Of a DNA stretch of 64,000 nucleotides, positions 5,049 to 26,161 are shown piece by piece. A model generated the notes under the pieces. The model did no database searches. It saw only the letters and a list, made by a program, of their open reading frames with translations, and had not been told where the DNA came from. The translations under genes were made by a program, and so were the position numbers. The DNA is from a virus. Its lineage: Duplodnaviria > Heunggongvirae > Uroviricota > Caudoviricetes. How positions within the stretch are numbered: the stretch's first letter is position 1; each line of letters opens with the position of its first letter. The DNA is taken from positions 5,472-69,471 of the IMG/VR virus record IMGVR_UViG_3300031420_000496. One strand, written 5' to 3'.

Positions 5049-5123
5049 TGGGCCTAAGGGCTGGATTCGAACCAGCGCACAGCTCCCATAACGGAGCCTG
5101 CTCTACCGCTGAGCTACCTCGGG
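5049..5123 (-). tRNA. tRNA with apparent 6-nt anticodon loop (GUUAUG; UAU-like)
   Basis: good acceptor/D/T arms; anticodon stem GCUCC/GGAGC leaves only 6 loop nt. Confidence 0.55.
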
Positions 5124-5581: not shown

Positions 5582-5718
5582 TGGTGTAGAGGGTAGGATT
5601 CGAACCTACGACATACTGCTTGGATAACTATTCACATTCGGTTGACGTTTGTCAACAAGTTGCGCAAACAGGTGTCTTTCGACGAGGCGGTCGCTCTGCC
5701 AGACTGAGCTACCTCTAC
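5582..5718 (-). tRNA. elongated tRNA-like gene (~137 nt) with internal insertion carrying GUUGAC-AAAC-GUCAAC hairpin
   Basis: perfect acceptor GUAGAGG/CCUCUAC, canonical D-arm GCUCAGUCUGGCAGAGC and T-arm GUAGG UUCGAAU CCUAC; about 56 nt extra. Confidence 0.5.
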
Positions 5719-5953: not shown

Positions 5954-6010
5954 ACAATGGGCACTGCATAATTATATGACAACAAAAGAGTTTGCATCGG
6001 AGATTTTTCC

Positions 6011-14751: not shown

Positions 14752-15276
14752 TTAGTTTCCTTTAAGTTTGTTGATGATGTTACGACCGACTTTGTTGAGT
14801 GCCTTGAATTTGATCTTGAAAGACGTGCTTTCAATACCTCCGAACATTTCAGCGTTGGCATGAAGTTCACTGAGTGCCGTGAGCAGAAGTGCTGGTGCGA
14901 GGTCCATGCGATCGTATCCAGCAGCGTCCGCTGGCTTGATCGTGTGCATGTCCATATCTCGCTGGATGAGTTCGGCGATCTGCTCACTTCCGCCGTTGAC
15001 TCGCCAGATCGCTGCGCTGATGCGCGCGTGGTCTGGAAAGTGTTGGCGACCTTCATCGTCAACGGTTACACAATACGGCTTGCCGCAATCGTGGTAGATG
15101 TGGTACTGCTCCATGATTTCTGCCGGTGGGCAGAGTGGCAGCAGGTAATCCAGATCGAACCAGTCCGGCAGTCGCCATTCCATTTTCTGTTCGCCAATGA
15201 GGTCTTTGTATCGGGCCGCAACGGCTTCGCCATGCTGGAGGATCGTTTGACCCTTCGACTGACTACACGACGACAT
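14752..15276 (-). CDS. hypothetical protein, possible HD-domain phosphohydrolase
   Basis: H..HD..H..H..D-like spacing (QHGEAV, YHIYHDCGKP, FPDHARIS); weak. Confidence 0.45.
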   Translation of the reverse strand: MSSCSQSKGQTILQHGEAVAARYKDLIGEQKMEWRLPDWFDLDYLLPLCPPAEIMEQYHIYHDCGKPYCVTVDDEGRQHFPDHARISAAIWRVNGGSEQIAELIQRDMDMHTIKPADAAGYDRMDLAPALLLTALSELHANAEMFGGIESTSFKIKFKALNKVGRNIINKLKGN

Positions 15277-15309
15277 CTTTTCGCGGAGAACCTAGAGGTG
15301 ATGAGCGTT

Positions 15310-15345
15310 CATTTGCATTTCCTTATTTGTCAGCTAATGCTTATA
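15310..15345 (-). promoter_or_regulatory. conserved ~33-bp promoter/leader-like motif (copy 1)
   Basis: TTCCTTATTTGTCAGCTAATGCTTATATTTCT; near-identical copy at 47903-47938, both just upstream of a minus-strand start. Confidence 0.45.
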
Positions 15346-15352
15346 TTTCTTG

Positions 15353-15590
15353 TTAGTCGAACAGCGTATGCAGAGCGTGGTACGTGTCGTCGGTATCGTA
15401 ATCGCCGCAACCCATGTAACGACTCCAATGGACTTTGATCTGCCCGTCTTCCATGGAAATCGATTGGATATGTTTCTCTTCAAACGTACCAGTTCCCCAG
15501 CCAAAGATTGGCGGAGTGATTCTCGACTTGTCGATCGACTCGATCAGTTCTTGATACAGGGAGGCAATCGCCTCGGCTTGGTTGAGGTTC
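15353..15590 (-). CDS. hypothetical protein
   Basis: ORF from MNLNQAEAIASLYQ. Confidence 0.45.
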
Positions 15591-15948
15591 ATTGCTGTTC
15601 TCCTTGGGTAGGCAGACGCCAGAGCTGCAAGCCCTTTGTCAAATGTCGTTGGTCTTCGGTGAGGATGCATGCGATCGCGGTCAGTCCCCATTCCTGGTAC
15701 GGCTCGTGAAATTCGGCTGTAGGAATGCCTGCATCGTTCAGCTTCTGGCGGAGCGATTCAAGTTGCGACTTGTTTTTGATCGTGAGGTGAATGTACGACG
15801 GGTGGTGATCCACTGGTCGGCCATACGTGTAGGCGTGTTCAACGGCAGCGTGGCCGGCTTGAATAGCCTGTTGCGCGAGTGGGAGGTCTCGGCGCGAGAT
15901 GGTGTAGAGGTACGTCTTTTGCGGTTTGGAAATCTAGAGCTTATGCAT
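15589..15948 (-). CDS. PTH2-like peptidyl-tRNA hydrolase with in-frame TAG at codon 5
   Basis: RRDLPLAQQAIQAGHAAVEHAY matches PTH2 core VVRTDLKMGKGKIAAQCSHAA; RBS AGGAT then ATG CAT AAG CTC TAG followed in frame by the domain; no canonical start downstream of the TAG until past the motif. Confidence 0.55.
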
Positions 15949-15983
15949 GATATATCCTAAGTGTGGTGGTCCCATTTTACGGG

Positions 15984-16074: not shown

Positions 16075-16320
<246 letters not shown>

Positions 16321-17176: not shown

Positions 17177-17295
17177 AACTGGATATTGGATTCGAACCAA
17201 TGACGCTAACCGTAGGGAACATTCACACGAGAATGCTGTATCGGTTTCGGTATCACGTGCCGCTGCACGCCGCTCTCCCACTGAGCTAATCCAGT
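17177..17295 (-). tRNA. elongated tRNA-like gene (~119 nt), CCA not encoded
   Basis: perfect acceptor ACUGGAU/AUCCAGU, universal D-arm AGCUCAGUGGGAGAGC, T-arm AUUGG UUCGAAU CCAAU; about 45 nt extra in anticodon/variable region. Confidence 0.5.
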
Positions 17296-17771: not shown

Positions 17772-17847
17772 TCCTAAATTCTGGTGCCCCGTGCGGGGAT
17801 CGAACCCGCAACCCTCGGTTTTAGAGACCGCCACTCTGCCAGTTGAG
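17772..17847 (-). tRNA. amber suppressor tRNA (anticodon CUA), Trp-like body
   Basis: clean cloverleaf GCCUCGU..ACGGGGC-A-CCA; anticodon arm GCGGU-CUCUAAA-ACCGA matches E. coli tRNA-Trp CCGGU-CUCCAAA-ACCGG except C35->U. Confidence 0.7.
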
Positions 17848-17927
17848 CTAACGAGGCTTAATCTGTACTGCCTGTTTCGTTCAGTGGAATCATTATACCC
17901 GGTTCACACTGTCTTGCACAGCCTTTT

Positions 17928-20689: not shown

Positions 20690-21920
20690 TTACAGTACTT
20701 CGTGGAGGAGTTGAACATCAGCAGCCGACGGACCGTACGATGCAGCACAGACTTCGATGCCCATGACTTTTTCGATGTACGCCAGCAGCTTCACCGACTT
20801 CAGCTTGAGCATGTCCTTGTTGCGGGTGACGATCGTCACGTGCTCGTCGAGTTGGTCGAGGCAGGTCACAAACAGCTTCGGCTGAAGAACCTCGACACCG
20901 AACAGCTGTGCAACGTGTTGGCCACGCTTCATGTCTTCGCGGATATACCATGCGAGCGCATGCAGATTCAGCGGAGCGTAACGGATCGAGCCTTGCCATT
21001 GGTTGTCGACGTTGGTCTTGTCGACCAGTTCTTTGTCGGTGATGGTTGCGCCTTCGTACAGCAGTTCGCCGGCACCGTGACGCGTCGCGTACGAACGAGT
21101 CATGTACACTGGACGGATCGACGTGCGACCGCATTCAGCTGCAGCGCGGATCGACGATGCGAGACCAGTAACGGAACGCGTGACGTGCGGGAAGTCGCCA
21201 AGGAATTCGTCGAGCATCAGGCCTTGTGCGCCTTCGACGACCACGACATCATCTTGTCCAAGGAACAACTTCGGATTCTGCAGCGACATGATGTCGCCAT
21301 AGTGCATCAGGTCTTCGACTTGCGTTTGGGTTTCGTCGAAGTACTCGAAGAAACGCATTGCGTCTTCGTTGCCTTCGAAGTCAGCTTTGTTCAGGCCGAG
21401 TTCCTGCATACGCTTCGGAACCCATTGACCGCGAATTTTCTGCAGGGCTTGTGCGATACCGAACTCGCTGCCTTTGATGGTTGCCATGTCGAGATGGTAG
21501 CCGGCCAGATCACGCGTGACGGTCTCGTTGATGCCCATGCCGCACGAACCATGACGTGCCGCACCGCGCTTGATTTCGATCAGCGAGTTGATGGCCATGT
21601 CGTAGTACGTGGTGACGCGGCTGTTGGGCGAGATGTAGACGCGTTGGCGAGTGCCGAGTTCTTTCAGCTCACGATTGAGCATGTACGGATTCGCGATGAA
21701 GCCGGAACTCAGATACGTTGGAACACCAGCGAACGCGCCGGAGCCGACGTGGCCGAAGACATGTCGCTTATCGCCATCGACGACAGTGTGACCAGCTTGT
21801 GCGCCACCATTGCCGCGAGCCACCATGGCTGCATTGTAGTGACGCGAGAAGAAGTCGGTTGCAAGGCCTTTGCCTTCGTCGCCATAACCGGCGCCGATAA
21901 CTGCGATAGATTTCGACATG
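20690..21920 (-). CDS. adenylosuccinate synthetase (PurA) family enzyme, divergent substrate loops
   Basis: GDEGKG P-loop, GNGGAQAGHTVV, VEGAQG, YATRHGAG motifs present; TTGRRRR aspartate loop and GTTGRGIGP IMP-phosphate loop replaced. Confidence 0.8.
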
Positions 21921-22102
21921 TTGATTTCCTTATTTTTTCGTGCAGGTTGCGAGTACGATCGAAGCCTGACCACGCAGACTTTCACGGTTTGCTTCCATGG
22001 CGGCGTTGCATGTGGCCTGCGAGTTGTACTCGACCTTCAGGGTTGCCACACCACCTTGGCTCATGCCGACGGTAAACACCATCGTGAGAATGTATGGAAC
22101 GA

Positions 22103-24937: not shown

Positions 24938-26161
24938 TTAATCTTTAATCAAACCGAGCATCGTGCTCAGCATGATATGATGGTCTTCAAACCACCATTC
25001 AGGATTTGCCAGAGCAACAGAGATTGGCATGAAGAAAGCATCTTCAGTTTCCACTACACCATCAACACCAATATCTTCGATTGGGAAGTATTGGCCTTTC
25101 ACGATCGGCAACGGCTTCGTATCATCGAGACGGAAGAGGTGGCAAGTCGTGAACGTACGACCACGAAGACTGCGGTTCGGATCGTCGAAGTTCCGCGTAG
25201 CAACCAACGAGCCGCGCAGAATTGCTTCGGTGATCTTCCGCCAGTTCTTTCCGTCAGCCAGCTTTAGACCAGTTTCTTCGATCGCTTCTGCGATTGCGGC
25301 GAGCAGCAGCGTCTGATTACTTTTGACGAAGCCGCCAGGCAGAGCGATCAGACCTTTACCAGGCAGTGCACCGCGACGAACAACAAGCACGTGGCCGGAC
25401 TGGATAATGCAGGCGTCGGCCGTGACGTACGTGCGGTCGTATTGCTTCGCGAGCCACGAGTCGAAGATGTCGACGATCTTCTCGTGATAGCGGTGAGGCA
25501 CGAAGTCAAGGATCGCCTTGAGCAGTGGTGCGTGCGGATTCTTGTACTTGACGTTGAACTCGTACTCTTCACGAAGCGTTTCGAATTCCTTCGTGCCATG
25601 AAATTGGCGAAGGAAGTTCACGGTCGTCAGCGGCACATCAAGCCAGTTGGCTGCACCACCGAAGTTGTCGCTGAACAGACGATGACGAAGTTTCGATGCA
25701 GACAGCCCTTCGCCAGCATCGATTGCTGGTTTGAGGTCGCTGATGTATTGAGGAAATGAATTGAGATACCACGTTGTCGAATCACGATCGGCGCCAGTGA
25801 TGGCGACATCAACTTCGCTGGCTTTCCAGCCAACTTCTTTGATGGTCGCATCGACGGTTTCTTGAACCAACTGCAACCACTTTGGGGTATTGTATTGGTC
25901 AACCACCGGCTTGATGATAGGCCACTTGTCAGTCGTCAGATAGTTCTGAAGAACCCAAGCGTTAATCATGTCGAAACGTTCGCTGAACGTAAACGGATTC
26001 TTAATGTTGCGGGCGATGAATGCACTTCCGACGAGTACCAGGACTTTGTCCGAAGATTCAATTGCCTGTTCCAGTATATGGGCGTGACCATTATGGAACG
26101 GTTGGAAACGGCCAATGAAGACCGTCAGACGCTTACGCGTCTTGATTTCGCTGTGTGCCAT
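24938..26161 (-). CDS. bifunctional NMN adenylyltransferase / Nudix hydrolase (NadM-Nudix)
   Basis: N-terminal FIGRFQPFHNGH cytidylyltransferase motif; C-terminal Nudix box PGGFVKSNQTLLLAAIAEAIEETG. Confidence 0.85.
   Translation of the reverse strand: MAHSEIKTRKRLTVFIGRFQPFHNGHAHILEQAIESSDKVLVLVGSAFIARNIKNPFTFSERFDMINAWVLQNYLTTDKWPIIKPVVDQYNTPKWLQLVQETVDATIKEVGWKASEVDVAITGADRDSTTWYLNSFPQYISDLKPAIDAGEGLSASKLRHRLFSDNFGGAANWLDVPLTTVNFLRQFHGTKEFETLREEYEFNVKYKNPHAPLLKAILDFVPHRYHEKIVDIFDSWLAKQYDRTYVTADACIIQSGHVLVVRRGALPGKGLIALPGGFVKSNQTLLLAAIAEAIEETGLKLADGKNWRKITEAILRGSLVATRNFDDPNRSLRGRTFTTCHLFRLDDTKPLPIVKGQYFPIEDIGVDGVVETEDAFFMPISVALANPEWWFEDHHIMLSTMLGLIKD

What the first reader, a model, noticed from the sequence alone, without database searches (positions are those of the whole stretch)
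15589..15948. PTH2-like peptidyl-tRNA hydrolase gene interrupted by an in-frame TAG at codon 5, 1.8 kb from the amber-suppressor tRNA
On the minus strand a strong RBS (AGGAT) is followed by ATG CAT AAG CTC TAG. The frame then continues without stops through a PTH2-type motif (TISRRDLPLAQQAIQAGHAAVEHAY ~ VVRTDLKMGKGKIAAQCSHAA) for about 115 codons. No canonical start lies between the TAG and the motif. So the gene is either a fresh nonsense pseudogene or needs UAG readthrough, and the phage itself encodes a tRNA(CUA). A suppressor-dependent peptidyl-tRNA hydrolase would be a neat regulatory circuit in a phage that carries over 30 tRNAs.
Basis: partly seen in the sequence, partly recalled or inferred. 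Interest (0 to 1): 0.8.

Follow-up and report, generated by a model that had tools for sequence, protein, structure and literature searches.

The report
Suppressor-tRNA-gated tRNA-hydrolase genes in phages
The early stop codon in this jumbo-phage gene is a conserved switch, not damage: two neighbouring enzyme genes that probably act on tRNA ends can only be translated when the phage's own stop-codon-reading tRNA is present, which gives phage suppressor tRNAs their first clear natural targets.

Summary
On the minus strand, AGGAT-N5-ATG CAT AAG CTC TAG ATT opens a 114-codon frame with no canonical start until codon 41 after the TAG. A tRNA(CUA) lies 1.8 kb upstream.

The protein has a PTH2 fold: the only strong Foldseek hits are PTH2 structures, and the Pfam match is borderline.

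The TAG is conserved. An in-frame stop at codons 2-7 precedes this gene in cultured phages ME3, RsoM2USA, GAP32, BF, XbC2, Kaldavass and Arash, and in dozens of metagenomic phages. In all, 49 of 81 distinct N-termini carry a TAG gate.

A second gene two ORFs downstream, an HD-superfamily hydrolase, is gated the same way in the window (MNAHHL*VLREK-M) and in 53 other lineages. XacN1 fuses the two proteins behind one TAG.

TAG gates co-occur with a nearby tRNA(CUA): 38/50 gated versus 5/23 ungated loci, p=2e-5. In locus L022 both gates are TGA and both neighbouring tRNAs have anticodon UCA.

The rest of the window uses the standard code.

Best reading: a natural translational AND gate that couples two enzymes probably acting on tRNA 3' ends to the phage suppressor tRNA. 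I found no published description. The biological reason for the gating is inferred only.

The parts
17782..17857 (-). Phage suppressor tRNA, anticodon CUA (reads UAG), CCA encoded. This is the trans-acting half of the gate.
   Evidence: ARAGORN. Rfam tRNA 60.3 bits with a full-length cloverleaf. Sequence. Isotype undetermined.
15954..15958 (-). Shine-Dalgarno AGGAT, 5 nt upstream of the leader ATG of the PTH2-like gene.
   Evidence: Read directly from the sequence.
15937..15948 (-). Four-codon leader ATG CAT AAG CTC (M H K L) of the PTH2-like gene.
   Evidence: Equivalent 1-6 codon leaders occur in relatives.
15934..15936 (-). Gating amber codon TAG (codon 5), followed by A (TAG ATT).
   Evidence: Conserved in 49 of 81 distinct N-termini. 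The base after the gating stop, pooled over both genes, is A 77, G 25, C 6, T 0.
15589..15933 (-). Body of the PTH2-fold hydrolase gene: 114 codons plus TGA. The full CDS with leader and gate is 15589-15948.
   Evidence: Pfam PTH2 18.7 bits, E=0.002. 5/9 family members hit PTH2 only. AlphaFold pLDDT 92.5. Foldseek top 14 hits are all PTH2-family or PTH2-like structures, TM 0.58-0.75.
15353..15592 (-). Ungated 79-aa ORF between the two gated genes. Its ATG overlaps the PTH2-like stop (ATGA). Function unknown.
   Evidence: No Pfam or PHROG hit.
15320..15324 (-). Shine-Dalgarno AAGGA, 7 nt upstream of the leader ATG of the HD gene.
15292..15312 (-). Leader ATG AAC GCT CAT CAC CTC (M N A H H L) plus gating TAG (15294-15292) of the HD gene.
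   Evidence: The same architecture occurs in 53 TAG-gated HD lineages.
14752..15291 (-). Body of the HD-superfamily phosphohydrolase gene (VLREK + 174 aa + stop). The full CDS with leader and gate is 14752-15312.
16277..16313 (-). 37-nt exact copy of 23S rRNA helix 42/43 (L11-binding GTPase-associated centre), in the non-coding gap upstream of the PTH2-like gene. Link to the gate is possible but unproven.

Best explanation
The PTH2-like gene (15589-15948, minus strand) is intact. Its amber codon at position 5 is a programmed gate.

How it works. Ribosomes start at the SD-ATG and translate M-H-K-L. At UAG they either terminate, releasing a useless tetrapeptide, or insert an amino acid from the phage tRNA(CUA) encoded 1.8 kb upstream. 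In the second case they go on to make the full 119-residue PTH2-fold hydrolase.

The HD-superfamily phosphohydrolase gene two ORFs downstream (14752-15312) is gated identically, as MNAHHL-UAG-VLREKM.... Each enzyme therefore needs both its mRNA and an active, charged suppressor tRNA that outcompetes RF1. This is a natural translational AND gate.

The stop sits in a variable N-terminal tail. Any inserted residue is tolerated there, and a failed attempt costs almost nothing.

What is shown: the conserved gate, the linkage to a cognate suppressor tRNA, the stop/anticodon covariation, the PTH2 fold and the HD fold.

What is inferred: (a) Both enzymes act on tRNA 3' ends. PTH2 enzymes cleave the ester at A76. 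The closest structural neighbour of the HD protein is a tRNA nucleotidyltransferase chain. The two proteins are fused in some phages. (b) The gate ties their amount or timing to the phage's own tRNA output. This would act as a delay, or as dose-matching to the level of stop-codon suppression. The second idea fits the phage tmRNA genes that sit beside the suppressor tRNAs in two relatives.
For: Sequence and absence of an alternative start.

Gate conserved in cultured phages: ME3 MT*IHEN, RsoM2USA ML*ISD, GAP32 MAQ*NEK, BF MTH*NDK, XbC2 and Kaldavass MAH*NEK, Arash ML*NKH. The gate is also in viral and metagenome contigs.

Totals: PTH2-like N-termini are 49 TAG, 1 TGA and 31 ungated. HD N-termini are 53 TAG, 3 TGA and 2 TAA. 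104 of 108 gates lie at codons 2-7. The base after the stop is A 77, G 25, C 6, T 0.

A tRNA(CUA) lies in the flank of 38/50 TAG-gated loci against 5/23 ungated loci. Fisher p=2e-5. One more case was recovered by Rfam and a relaxed ARAGORN scan. RsoM2USA and XacN1 encode CUA tRNAs elsewhere in their genomes (PMC8504454; PMC5852040).

Covariation: in L022 both genes carry TGA, and the two adjacent tRNAs have anticodon UCA.

The peptide after the stop is homologous to the N-terminus of ungated homologues. Compare gated MT*VYPTSFDELKAA with ungated M-IYPNTFEELLHV. So that stretch is translated.

Gene fusions: XacN1 ORF364 is HD plus PTH2-like behind MK*TIKA. L100 reads HD-TAG-PTH2 in one frame.

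Folds.
Against: There is no experimental evidence of readthrough, and the inserted amino acid is unknown.

Eleven or twelve TAG-gated loci of at least 10 kb show no CUA tRNA in the fetched flank.

Only one locus gives a complete non-TAG covariation. The other TGA and TAA gates (L088, L154, L153/L170) have no tRNA in the sequence held.

Five ungated architectures (in loci of at least 10 kb) still sit beside a tRNA(CUA), including L033-36. So the linkage is not only about the gate.

The window protein is below Pfam's PTH2 cut-off. The PTH2 catalytic lysine, as I recall it, appears not to be conserved in the alignment. Hydrolase activity is therefore unproven.

The reason for the gating (timer or dose-matching) is conjecture.
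Confidence: 0.8

Rival explanations
1. Leader mini-ORF. MHKL* is a separate upstream ORF. The hydrolase is translated by termination-reinitiation, or by independent initiation at a non-canonical codon just after the stop (ATT). The suppressor tRNA plays no part.
For: ATT, a rare start codon, directly follows the TAG in the window, ME3, RsoM2USA and several relatives. In the HD gene a conserved ATG lies 5-13 codons after the stop.
Against: Most gates are followed by AAT, AAC, GTT, ACA, AGC or CTT, none of which is a start codon. The stretch between the stop and the conserved Met of HD is conserved as protein and forms the N-terminus of ungated homologues. The stop identity covaries with the tRNA anticodon in L022. 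TAG gates associate with tRNA(CUA) at p=2e-5.
Confidence: 0.07
2. The gate is real but is read through without the phage tRNA, for example by host near-cognate tRNAs when RF1 is limiting. The phage tRNA(CUA) would then serve some other purpose.
For: Eleven or twelve gated loci have no CUA tRNA in the flank. Several ungated loci have one. A possible L11-decoy RNA lies upstream. From memory, L11 limitation is reported to weaken RF1.
Against: Gates co-occur with a cognate suppressor tRNA, and the L022 TGA/UCA switch affects both genes. The anticodon loops are of the efficient-suppressor type CU-CUA-AA. Other authors found no other targets for these tRNAs (PMC5852040).
Confidence: 0.08
3. The whole phage uses a reassigned code (TAG as a sense codon, table 15), so the TAG is ordinary coding sequence and not a gene-specific switch.
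For: Public gene callers translated many homologues with Q at this position. A phage suppressor tRNA is the hallmark of recoded phages (PMC13037316).
Against: In the 64-kb window, long genes of up to 550 aa are uninterrupted under table 11. TAG ends about 5 of 99 ORFs. Only the two genes described show an in-frame TAG with coding sequence on both sides. The stop is always at codons 2-13 and never deep inside the gene. The database Q residues are TAG in the DNA.
Confidence: 0.03
4. Recent nonsense pseudogene or sequencing error.
For: A single stop near the start of a gene in one sequence looks like damage.
Against: The same feature occurs in about 100 distinct gene lineages at 30-90% identity, including independently sequenced cultured phages. 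The downstream frame stays intact and conserved.
Confidence: 0.01

Closest known systems
Stop-codon recoding in phages (TAG or TGA reassigned, with phage suppressor tRNAs: Lak megaphages, crAss-like phages, jumbo phages)
   Same: A phage-encoded suppressor tRNA decodes in-frame stops in phage genes. A timing role has been proposed for such recoding (from memory: Borges et al. 2022). The link between suppressor tRNAs and recoding is described in PMC13037316.
   Different: Here the genome keeps the standard code. Only one or two genes carry a single stop, always within the first few codons. Those genes are a specific pair of hydrolases.
Synthetic amber-suppressor AND gate (supD tRNA plus a T7 RNA polymerase gene carrying amber codons; Anderson, Voigt and Arkin 2007, from memory)
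   Same: The logic is the same. Output needs both the mRNA and a separately expressed suppressor tRNA.
   Different: This one is natural, conserved and phage-encoded. It has one stop at codons 2-7 and two outputs.
prfB (RF2) autoregulatory in-frame UGA at codon 26 (textbook knowledge)
   Same: An early in-frame stop makes expression depend on the competition between termination and an alternative decoding event.
   Different: prfB escapes by +1 frameshifting and senses its own product. Here escape is by a cognate suppressor tRNA, and no feedback has been shown.
Programmed readthrough in viruses (Q-beta A1 protein, retroviral gag-pol)
   Same: A conserved in-frame stop is decoded as sense to make a functional protein.
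   Different: Those use host near-cognate tRNAs at a C-terminal stop to add an extension at low frequency. Here a dedicated cognate tRNA reads an N-terminal stop and controls all production of the protein.
PTH2 peptidyl-tRNA hydrolases (PF01981; archaeal Pth2, human PTRH2/Bit1)
   Same: Same fold (TM 0.65-0.75 for the best PTH2 matches). Shares the Q-x-x-H-A helix motif and an acidic residue before the G-x-T strand.
   Different: Sequence similarity is borderline, and a profile search of PDB sequences finds nothing. The family is almost confined to phages. The substrate is unknown.
HD domains of tRNA-handling enzymes (class II tRNA nucleotidyltransferase family, GlyRS beta subunit)
Orphan suppressor tRNAs of standard-code phages (XacN1, RsoM2USA, GAP32, Summit)
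   Same: These are the same tRNAs. Two of these phages are in the present data set.
   Different: The published accounts state that targets were not identified (PMC5852040; PMC9022506 abstract). The gated HD and PTH2-like genes supply targets.

Membership tests
PTH2 peptidyl-tRNA hydrolase family (PF01981) | Scores above the Pfam gathering threshold | tested here: inconclusive
   The window protein scores 18.7 bits against a cut-off of 23. The XacN1 homologue scores 25.3 bits and passes. 5 of 9 diverse members match PTH2 at E<=0.01, best 1.7e-6, and match no other family.
PTH2 peptidyl-tRNA hydrolase family (PF01981) | PTH2 alpha/beta fold | tested here: met
   The model has pLDDT 92.5. The 14 Foldseek PDB hits with E<0.001 are PTH2 structures (1wn2, 3erj, 2zv3, 1rlk, 1q7s, 1xty) plus the PTH2-like protein 2gax. 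The next hit has E>0.1.
PTH2 peptidyl-tRNA hydrolase family (PF01981) | Catalytic residues and peptidyl-tRNA hydrolase activity | not testable with these tools
   Q25, H28, A29, E77 and T85 are invariant or nearly so. The G-K-G-K lysine of archaeal Pth2, recalled from memory, has no obvious counterpart. No residue-level superposition was available.
Suppressor-tRNA-dependent (gated) gene | In-frame stop conserved across homologues, with no alternative start | tested here: met
Suppressor-tRNA-dependent (gated) gene | Cognate suppressor tRNA encoded by the same genome | tested here: met
   Window tRNA(CUA) at 17782-17857. 38-39 of 50 gated loci of at least 10 kb have one in the flank.
Suppressor-tRNA-dependent (gated) gene | Stop codon and anticodon change together | tested here: met
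   L022 has TGA in both genes and two tRNA(UCA). This is a single fully informative case. No mismatched pair was seen.
Suppressor-tRNA-dependent (gated) gene | Readthrough product demonstrated | not testable with these tools
   Needs a reporter assay or mass spectrometry.
Genome-wide TAG reassignment (translation table 15) | Many in-frame TAGs spread through conserved genes, and TAG not used as a terminator | tested here: not met
   There are only two gated genes in 64 kb, and TAG terminates about 5% of ORFs.
Pyrrolysine system (ARAGORN label 'tRNA-Pyl') | Atypical tRNA-Pyl architecture and pylS/pylBCD genes | tested here: inconclusive
   The tRNA fits the general tRNA model over its full length at 60.3 bits, and the ARAGORN label follows from the anticodon alone. 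The window was not searched for pyl genes. The gate sits in a variable tail, where a special residue has no obvious role.
HD-superfamily metal-dependent phosphohydrolase | HD fold with an H...HD...D metal site | tested here: met

The most novel reading that the evidence does not exclude
A widespread, previously unrecognised phage regulatory module. A phage suppressor tRNA exists mainly to unlock one or two genes, a PTH2-fold hydrolase and an HD hydrolase that may act on tRNA 3' ends, through a stop codon at codons 2-7. This would be the natural counterpart of the synthetic amber AND gate. It would answer what orphan suppressor tRNAs in standard-code jumbo phages are for. It may also be the small first step from which whole-genome stop-codon reassignment in phages evolved. 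In some lineages the module sits next to a phage tmRNA and a copy of the 23S rRNA L11-binding helix, which hints at a broader system for manipulating translation termination.
Probability: 0.7. Interest if true: 0.85.

Novelty: new variant of a known kind. Interest (0 to 1): 0.8.

Why it matters
1. It gives concrete, testable natural targets for suppressor tRNAs in phages that otherwise use the standard code. The XacN1 and Summit authors reported this as unresolved.

2. It is a natural two-input translational switch. Cultured models are available: GAP32, BF, ME3, Arash, RsoM2USA and XacN1.

3. It offers a plausible evolutionary intermediate on the way to stop-codon reassignment in phages.

4. 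It exposes a systematic annotation error. These genes are missed, truncated at an internal start, or translated with Q at the stop.

5. It provides dozens of natural suppressor tRNA and stop-context pairs that could be useful for genetic-code engineering.

Tried and rejected
- A near-identity DNA search of the phage collection found no relative of the locus, only the rRNA-like 37-mer.
Single-protein queries worked.
- The amino-acid identity of the suppressor tRNA could not be assigned. The 35 distinct suppressor tRNAs are very diverse. The window tRNA's best matches were Trp (74%) and Lys (72%), which is not decisive.
- A profile search of PDB sequences found no PTH2. Only the fold comparison did.
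- I looked for further gated genes in the window using all in-frame TAGs followed by at least 60 open codons. The other candidates are gene junctions, lie in a different frame inside another ORF, or lie inside tRNA genes.
- I looked for close relatives of the TGA-gated locus L022 and found only L022 itself.
- A bacterial-genome scan gave only 6 hits, all in MAGs and probably phage contigs, so no cellular context could be learned.
- Rejected readings: pseudogene, genome-wide code 15, reinitiation at ATT, and pyrrolysine.

Full report
OBSERVATION. The minus strand reads ttAGGATatatcATG CAT AAG CTC TAG ATT TCC AAA CCG CAA AAG ACG TAC CTC TAC ACC ATC TCG CGC CGA GAC.... The ATG is at 15948-15946 and the TAG at 15936-15934. 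The frame then runs 114 codons to TGA at 15591-15589. The first in-frame ATG/GTG/TTG after the TAG is GTG at 15813, which lies inside the conserved domain. A tRNA with anticodon CUA lies at 17782-17857 on the same strand. It has a full cloverleaf and an encoded CCA.

WHAT THE PROTEIN IS. Pfam gives only PTH2, and below the curated cut-off: 18.7 bits against 23, E=0.002. Among nine diverse homologues, five match PTH2 and none matches anything else. The XacN1 homologue passes the cut-off. An AlphaFold model built on 58 sequences has pLDDT 92.5. Its only significant Foldseek hits in the PDB are the PTH2 structures PH1539, AF2095, MJ0051, TA0108, Bit1 and Sulfolobus Pth2, plus the PTH2-like protein Atu0240. 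TM-scores are 0.58-0.75, and nothing else scores below E=0.1. A sequence profile search of the PDB finds nothing. So this is a divergent PTH2-fold protein. Its activity was not tested. A scan of 185,579 species genomes found only six homologues, all in MAGs, so the family is essentially confined to phages.

THE STOP IS CONSERVED. tblastn finds homologues in 40 phage records. In many of them nothing is annotated under the match, or the CDS is cut short at its N-terminus. Reading the frames upstream gives the following:
- window: MHKL*ISKPQKTYLYTISRRDL
- Acinetobacter phage ME3: MT*IHENKKHTYVFVRRDI
- Ralstonia phage RsoM2USA: ML*ISDKTYSYCFIRTDI
- Erwinia phage Kaldavass and Xanthomonas phage XbC2: MAH*NEKTWIYVFVRTDL
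- Serratia phage BF: MTH*NDKTW
- Cronobacter phage GAP32: MAQ*NEKTW
- Salmonella phage Arash: ML*NKHWIYTFVRYDL

All of these stops are TAG. RaK2 and S-CBWM1 have plain starts. Each of the gated cultured phages except RsoM2USA has a tRNA(CUA) within 0.4-3.7 kb. RsoM2USA encodes one elsewhere, according to its genome paper (PMC8504454).

Forty-five viral contigs related to the window protein show the same pattern. They include the closest relatives. L108, whose HD protein is 92% identical to the window's, has MSQL*ISTKAPKTYLY.

Many database proteins of this family carry a Q where the DNA has TAG, because gene callers applied table 15. I verified this for L056 (MKA*NLKSYLY) and L059 (MKS*ISKTYLY).

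A SECOND GATED GENE. Two ORFs downstream, the HD-type gene usually called as 14752-15276 is preceded in frame by AAGGA-N7-ATG AAC GCT CAT CAC CTC TAG GTT CTC CGC GAA AAG ATG. Most relatives have the same architecture. Examples are MT*VYPTSFDELKAA-M, MK*VKLNELRQK-M, MKS*ISKEELEAP-M (RsoM2USA) and MA*TLDQLVDS-M.

The stretch after the stop is conserved as protein. It corresponds to the N-terminus of ungated homologues, such as GAP32-like M-IYPNTFEELLHV-M. It is therefore translated, and not by reinitiation at the later Met.

In XacN1 the HD and PTH2-like proteins are fused into one ORF (ORF364), which is itself preceded by MK*TIKA. The XacN1 authors reported that they could not find targets for their CUA tRNAs (PMC5852040). 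In L100 the HD gene ends in a TAG that is in frame with the PTH2-like domain.

NUMBERS. The survey covered 127 distinct architectures from cultured phages, IMG/VR contigs and JGI metagenome contigs.
- PTH2-like N-termini: 49 TAG-gated, 1 TGA-gated, 31 ungated.
- HD N-termini: 53 TAG, 3 TGA, 2 TAA, and 53 ungated, fused or incomplete.
- Leader length: 2-3 codons including the ATG in 81 of 108 gates, and 104 of 108 stops lie at codons 2-7.
- Base after the stop: A 77, G 25, C 6, T 0.

From memory, a purine and especially A after UAG favours suppression in E. coli (Bossi 1983; Miller and Albertini 1983). I did not test this.

Among loci of at least 10 kb, 38 of 50 TAG-gated architectures have a tRNA(CUA) in the flank, against 5 of 23 ungated ones. 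The odds ratio is 11 and Fisher p=2e-5. One apparent exception, L013/L015, does have a CUA tRNA 200 nt upstream. ARAGORN's default settings missed it, and Rfam and a relaxed scan found it.

COVARIATION. In L022 the PTH2-like gene reads GGAGAAtaccATG GAA TCG TGA GTC..., and the HD gene reads MTWS-TGA-VTLPTSFEELKTA. The two tRNAs 1.1-1.3 kb upstream both have anticodon UCA. Two genes and two tRNAs have switched together. No locus pairs a TAG gate with only a UCA tRNA, or the reverse. The other TGA and TAA gates (L088, L154, L153/L170) have no tRNA in the sequence I hold, so this is the only fully informative case.

ALTERNATIVES EXCLUDED.
- Pseudogene or sequencing error: excluded by the conservation.
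- Genome-wide reassignment: the window's genes are intact under table 11. TAG ends about 5 of 99 ORFs. No other in-frame TAG has coding sequence on both sides.
- Reinitiation at ATT: most gates are followed by codons that cannot start translation. This reading also explains neither the covariation nor the tRNA linkage.

MECHANISM. Shown: a conserved early stop, a cognate phage suppressor tRNA, covariation of the two, and two hydrolase folds.

Inferred: the stop is decoded by the phage tRNA in competition with RF1. Each enzyme is therefore made only when the suppressor tRNA is expressed, processed and charged.

The stop lies in a variable N-terminal tail. This explains why very different suppressor tRNAs serve in different phages: 35 distinct sequences, nearly all with the loop CU-CUA-AA.

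The reason for gating these two genes is not established. Both are plausibly tRNA 3'-end enzymes, and they are fused in some phages. Ungated homologues exist in phages with no suppressor tRNA, and in one clade with no tRNAs nearby. So the enzymes do not need the suppressor as a substrate.

I favour coupling of enzyme dose or timing to phage tRNA output, or to the level of suppression. The second idea fits the phage tmRNA genes found directly beside the suppressor tRNAs in L022 and L013. I put this at about 0.3-0.4.

KNOWN SYSTEMS AND LITERATURE. The nearest known phenomenon is stop-codon recoding in phages. The nearest logical equivalent is the synthetic amber-suppressor AND gate. Six full-text searches found no description of stop-gated PTH2-like or HD genes. 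The papers that do mention such tRNAs say the targets are unknown or only speculate.

SIDE OBSERVATION. A 37-nt exact copy of 23S rRNA helix 42/43 lies about 330 nt upstream of the gene, on the same strand. This helix is the L11-binding GTPase-associated centre; I identified it by comparison with the E. coli 58-mer recalled from memory. The same element lies upstream of the gated gene in GAP32, BF, XbC2 and Kaldavass, and in the window's near relatives L108 and L111. It also occurs in about 15 other viral contigs that have no PTH2-like gene in the fetched DNA. It is therefore a separate, widespread phage RNA element. Any link to UAG readthrough, for example through titration of L11, is speculative.

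LIMITS. Everything here is comparative. There is no expression or protein evidence. The flanks examined were only 6-10 kb. The gate criteria are my own: no canonical start between the stop and the conserved domain, an ATG no more than 14 codons upstream of the stop, and no more than 30 codons between the stop and the domain.

Noticed in passing
window 16277-16313 (minus strand); conserved element roughly 16190-16320: An exact 37-nt copy of 23S rRNA helix 42/43 (L11-binding GTPase-associated centre): CCAGGATGTTGGCTTAGAAGCAGCCATCATTTAAAGA. It sits in a non-coding gap and is followed by a second motif, CAGGGGAAG, shared with GAP32-like phages. Similar copies occur in about 20 distinct viral-contig sequences, and they continue ...AAAGAGTG plus unrelated sequence. 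No Rfam family matches. It could be an L11 or translation-factor decoy RNA.
   Followed up: partly
window 17177-17295 (minus strand): A tRNA-like gene (Rfam tRNA 40.2 bits) with normal acceptor, D and T arms. The anticodon arm is replaced by a 6-bp hairpin with a tetraloop plus a long extra arm, an insertion of about 45 nt. ARAGORN does not call it. It lies between the suppressor tRNA and the gated genes.
   Followed up: partly
L022:7830-8174 and L013:8333-8686: Phage-encoded tmRNA genes (tag peptides ANNSVYALAA and ANSDSFRLVA) lie directly upstream of the suppressor tRNAs and the gated genes in two relatives. This suggests a translation-rescue island.
   Followed up: partly
proteins P0003, P0005, P0007, P0011, P0016 and others; loci L056, L059: Public protein databases hold these genes translated with Q at the gating TAG, because table 15 was applied. 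Others are truncated to an internal Met or Val. Two cases were verified at DNA level.
   Followed up: yes
L100 (viral contig IMGVR_UViG_3300009481_000010), around position 6000: The HD gene ends in a TAG that is directly in frame with the PTH2-like domain (...KKFCERLNDP*GHTYVFVRNDI). The second enzyme would be made only as a readthrough extension of the first.
   Followed up: partly
window 20690-21985 (minus strand): An adenylosuccinate-synthetase-like gene (Pfam 133 bits). Phage homologues of this enzyme include PurZ, which makes 2-aminoadenine DNA. I did not test which type this is.
   Followed up: no
window 24938-26161 (minus strand): A cytidylyltransferase-like plus NUDIX fusion (NadR/NMNAT-like), which suggests phage NAD salvage.
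   Followed up: no
window 5049-5123 and 5585-5718 (minus strand): Odd tRNA calls in the tRNA array. One has a two-base 'anticodon' (ta) by ARAGORN. The other is a 134-nt Rfam-only tRNA hit, possibly containing an intron.
   Followed up: no
L128, L132, L143, L151, L165, L167: A clade in which the PTH2-like domain carries a conserved N-terminal extension (RIDQYGxTALPQA...). An in-frame TGA precedes it, with no start codon in between and no short ATG leader. The HD domain appears to be fused downstream. No suppressor tRNA is present in the flanks.
   Followed up: no
L187 (NZ_JAZQPV010000123.1): An 84%-identical homologue sits on a 7.6-kb contig binned into an Acinetobacter MAG. This may hint at the host, or it may be a binning artefact, since the window's GC content is about 52%.
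   Followed up: no
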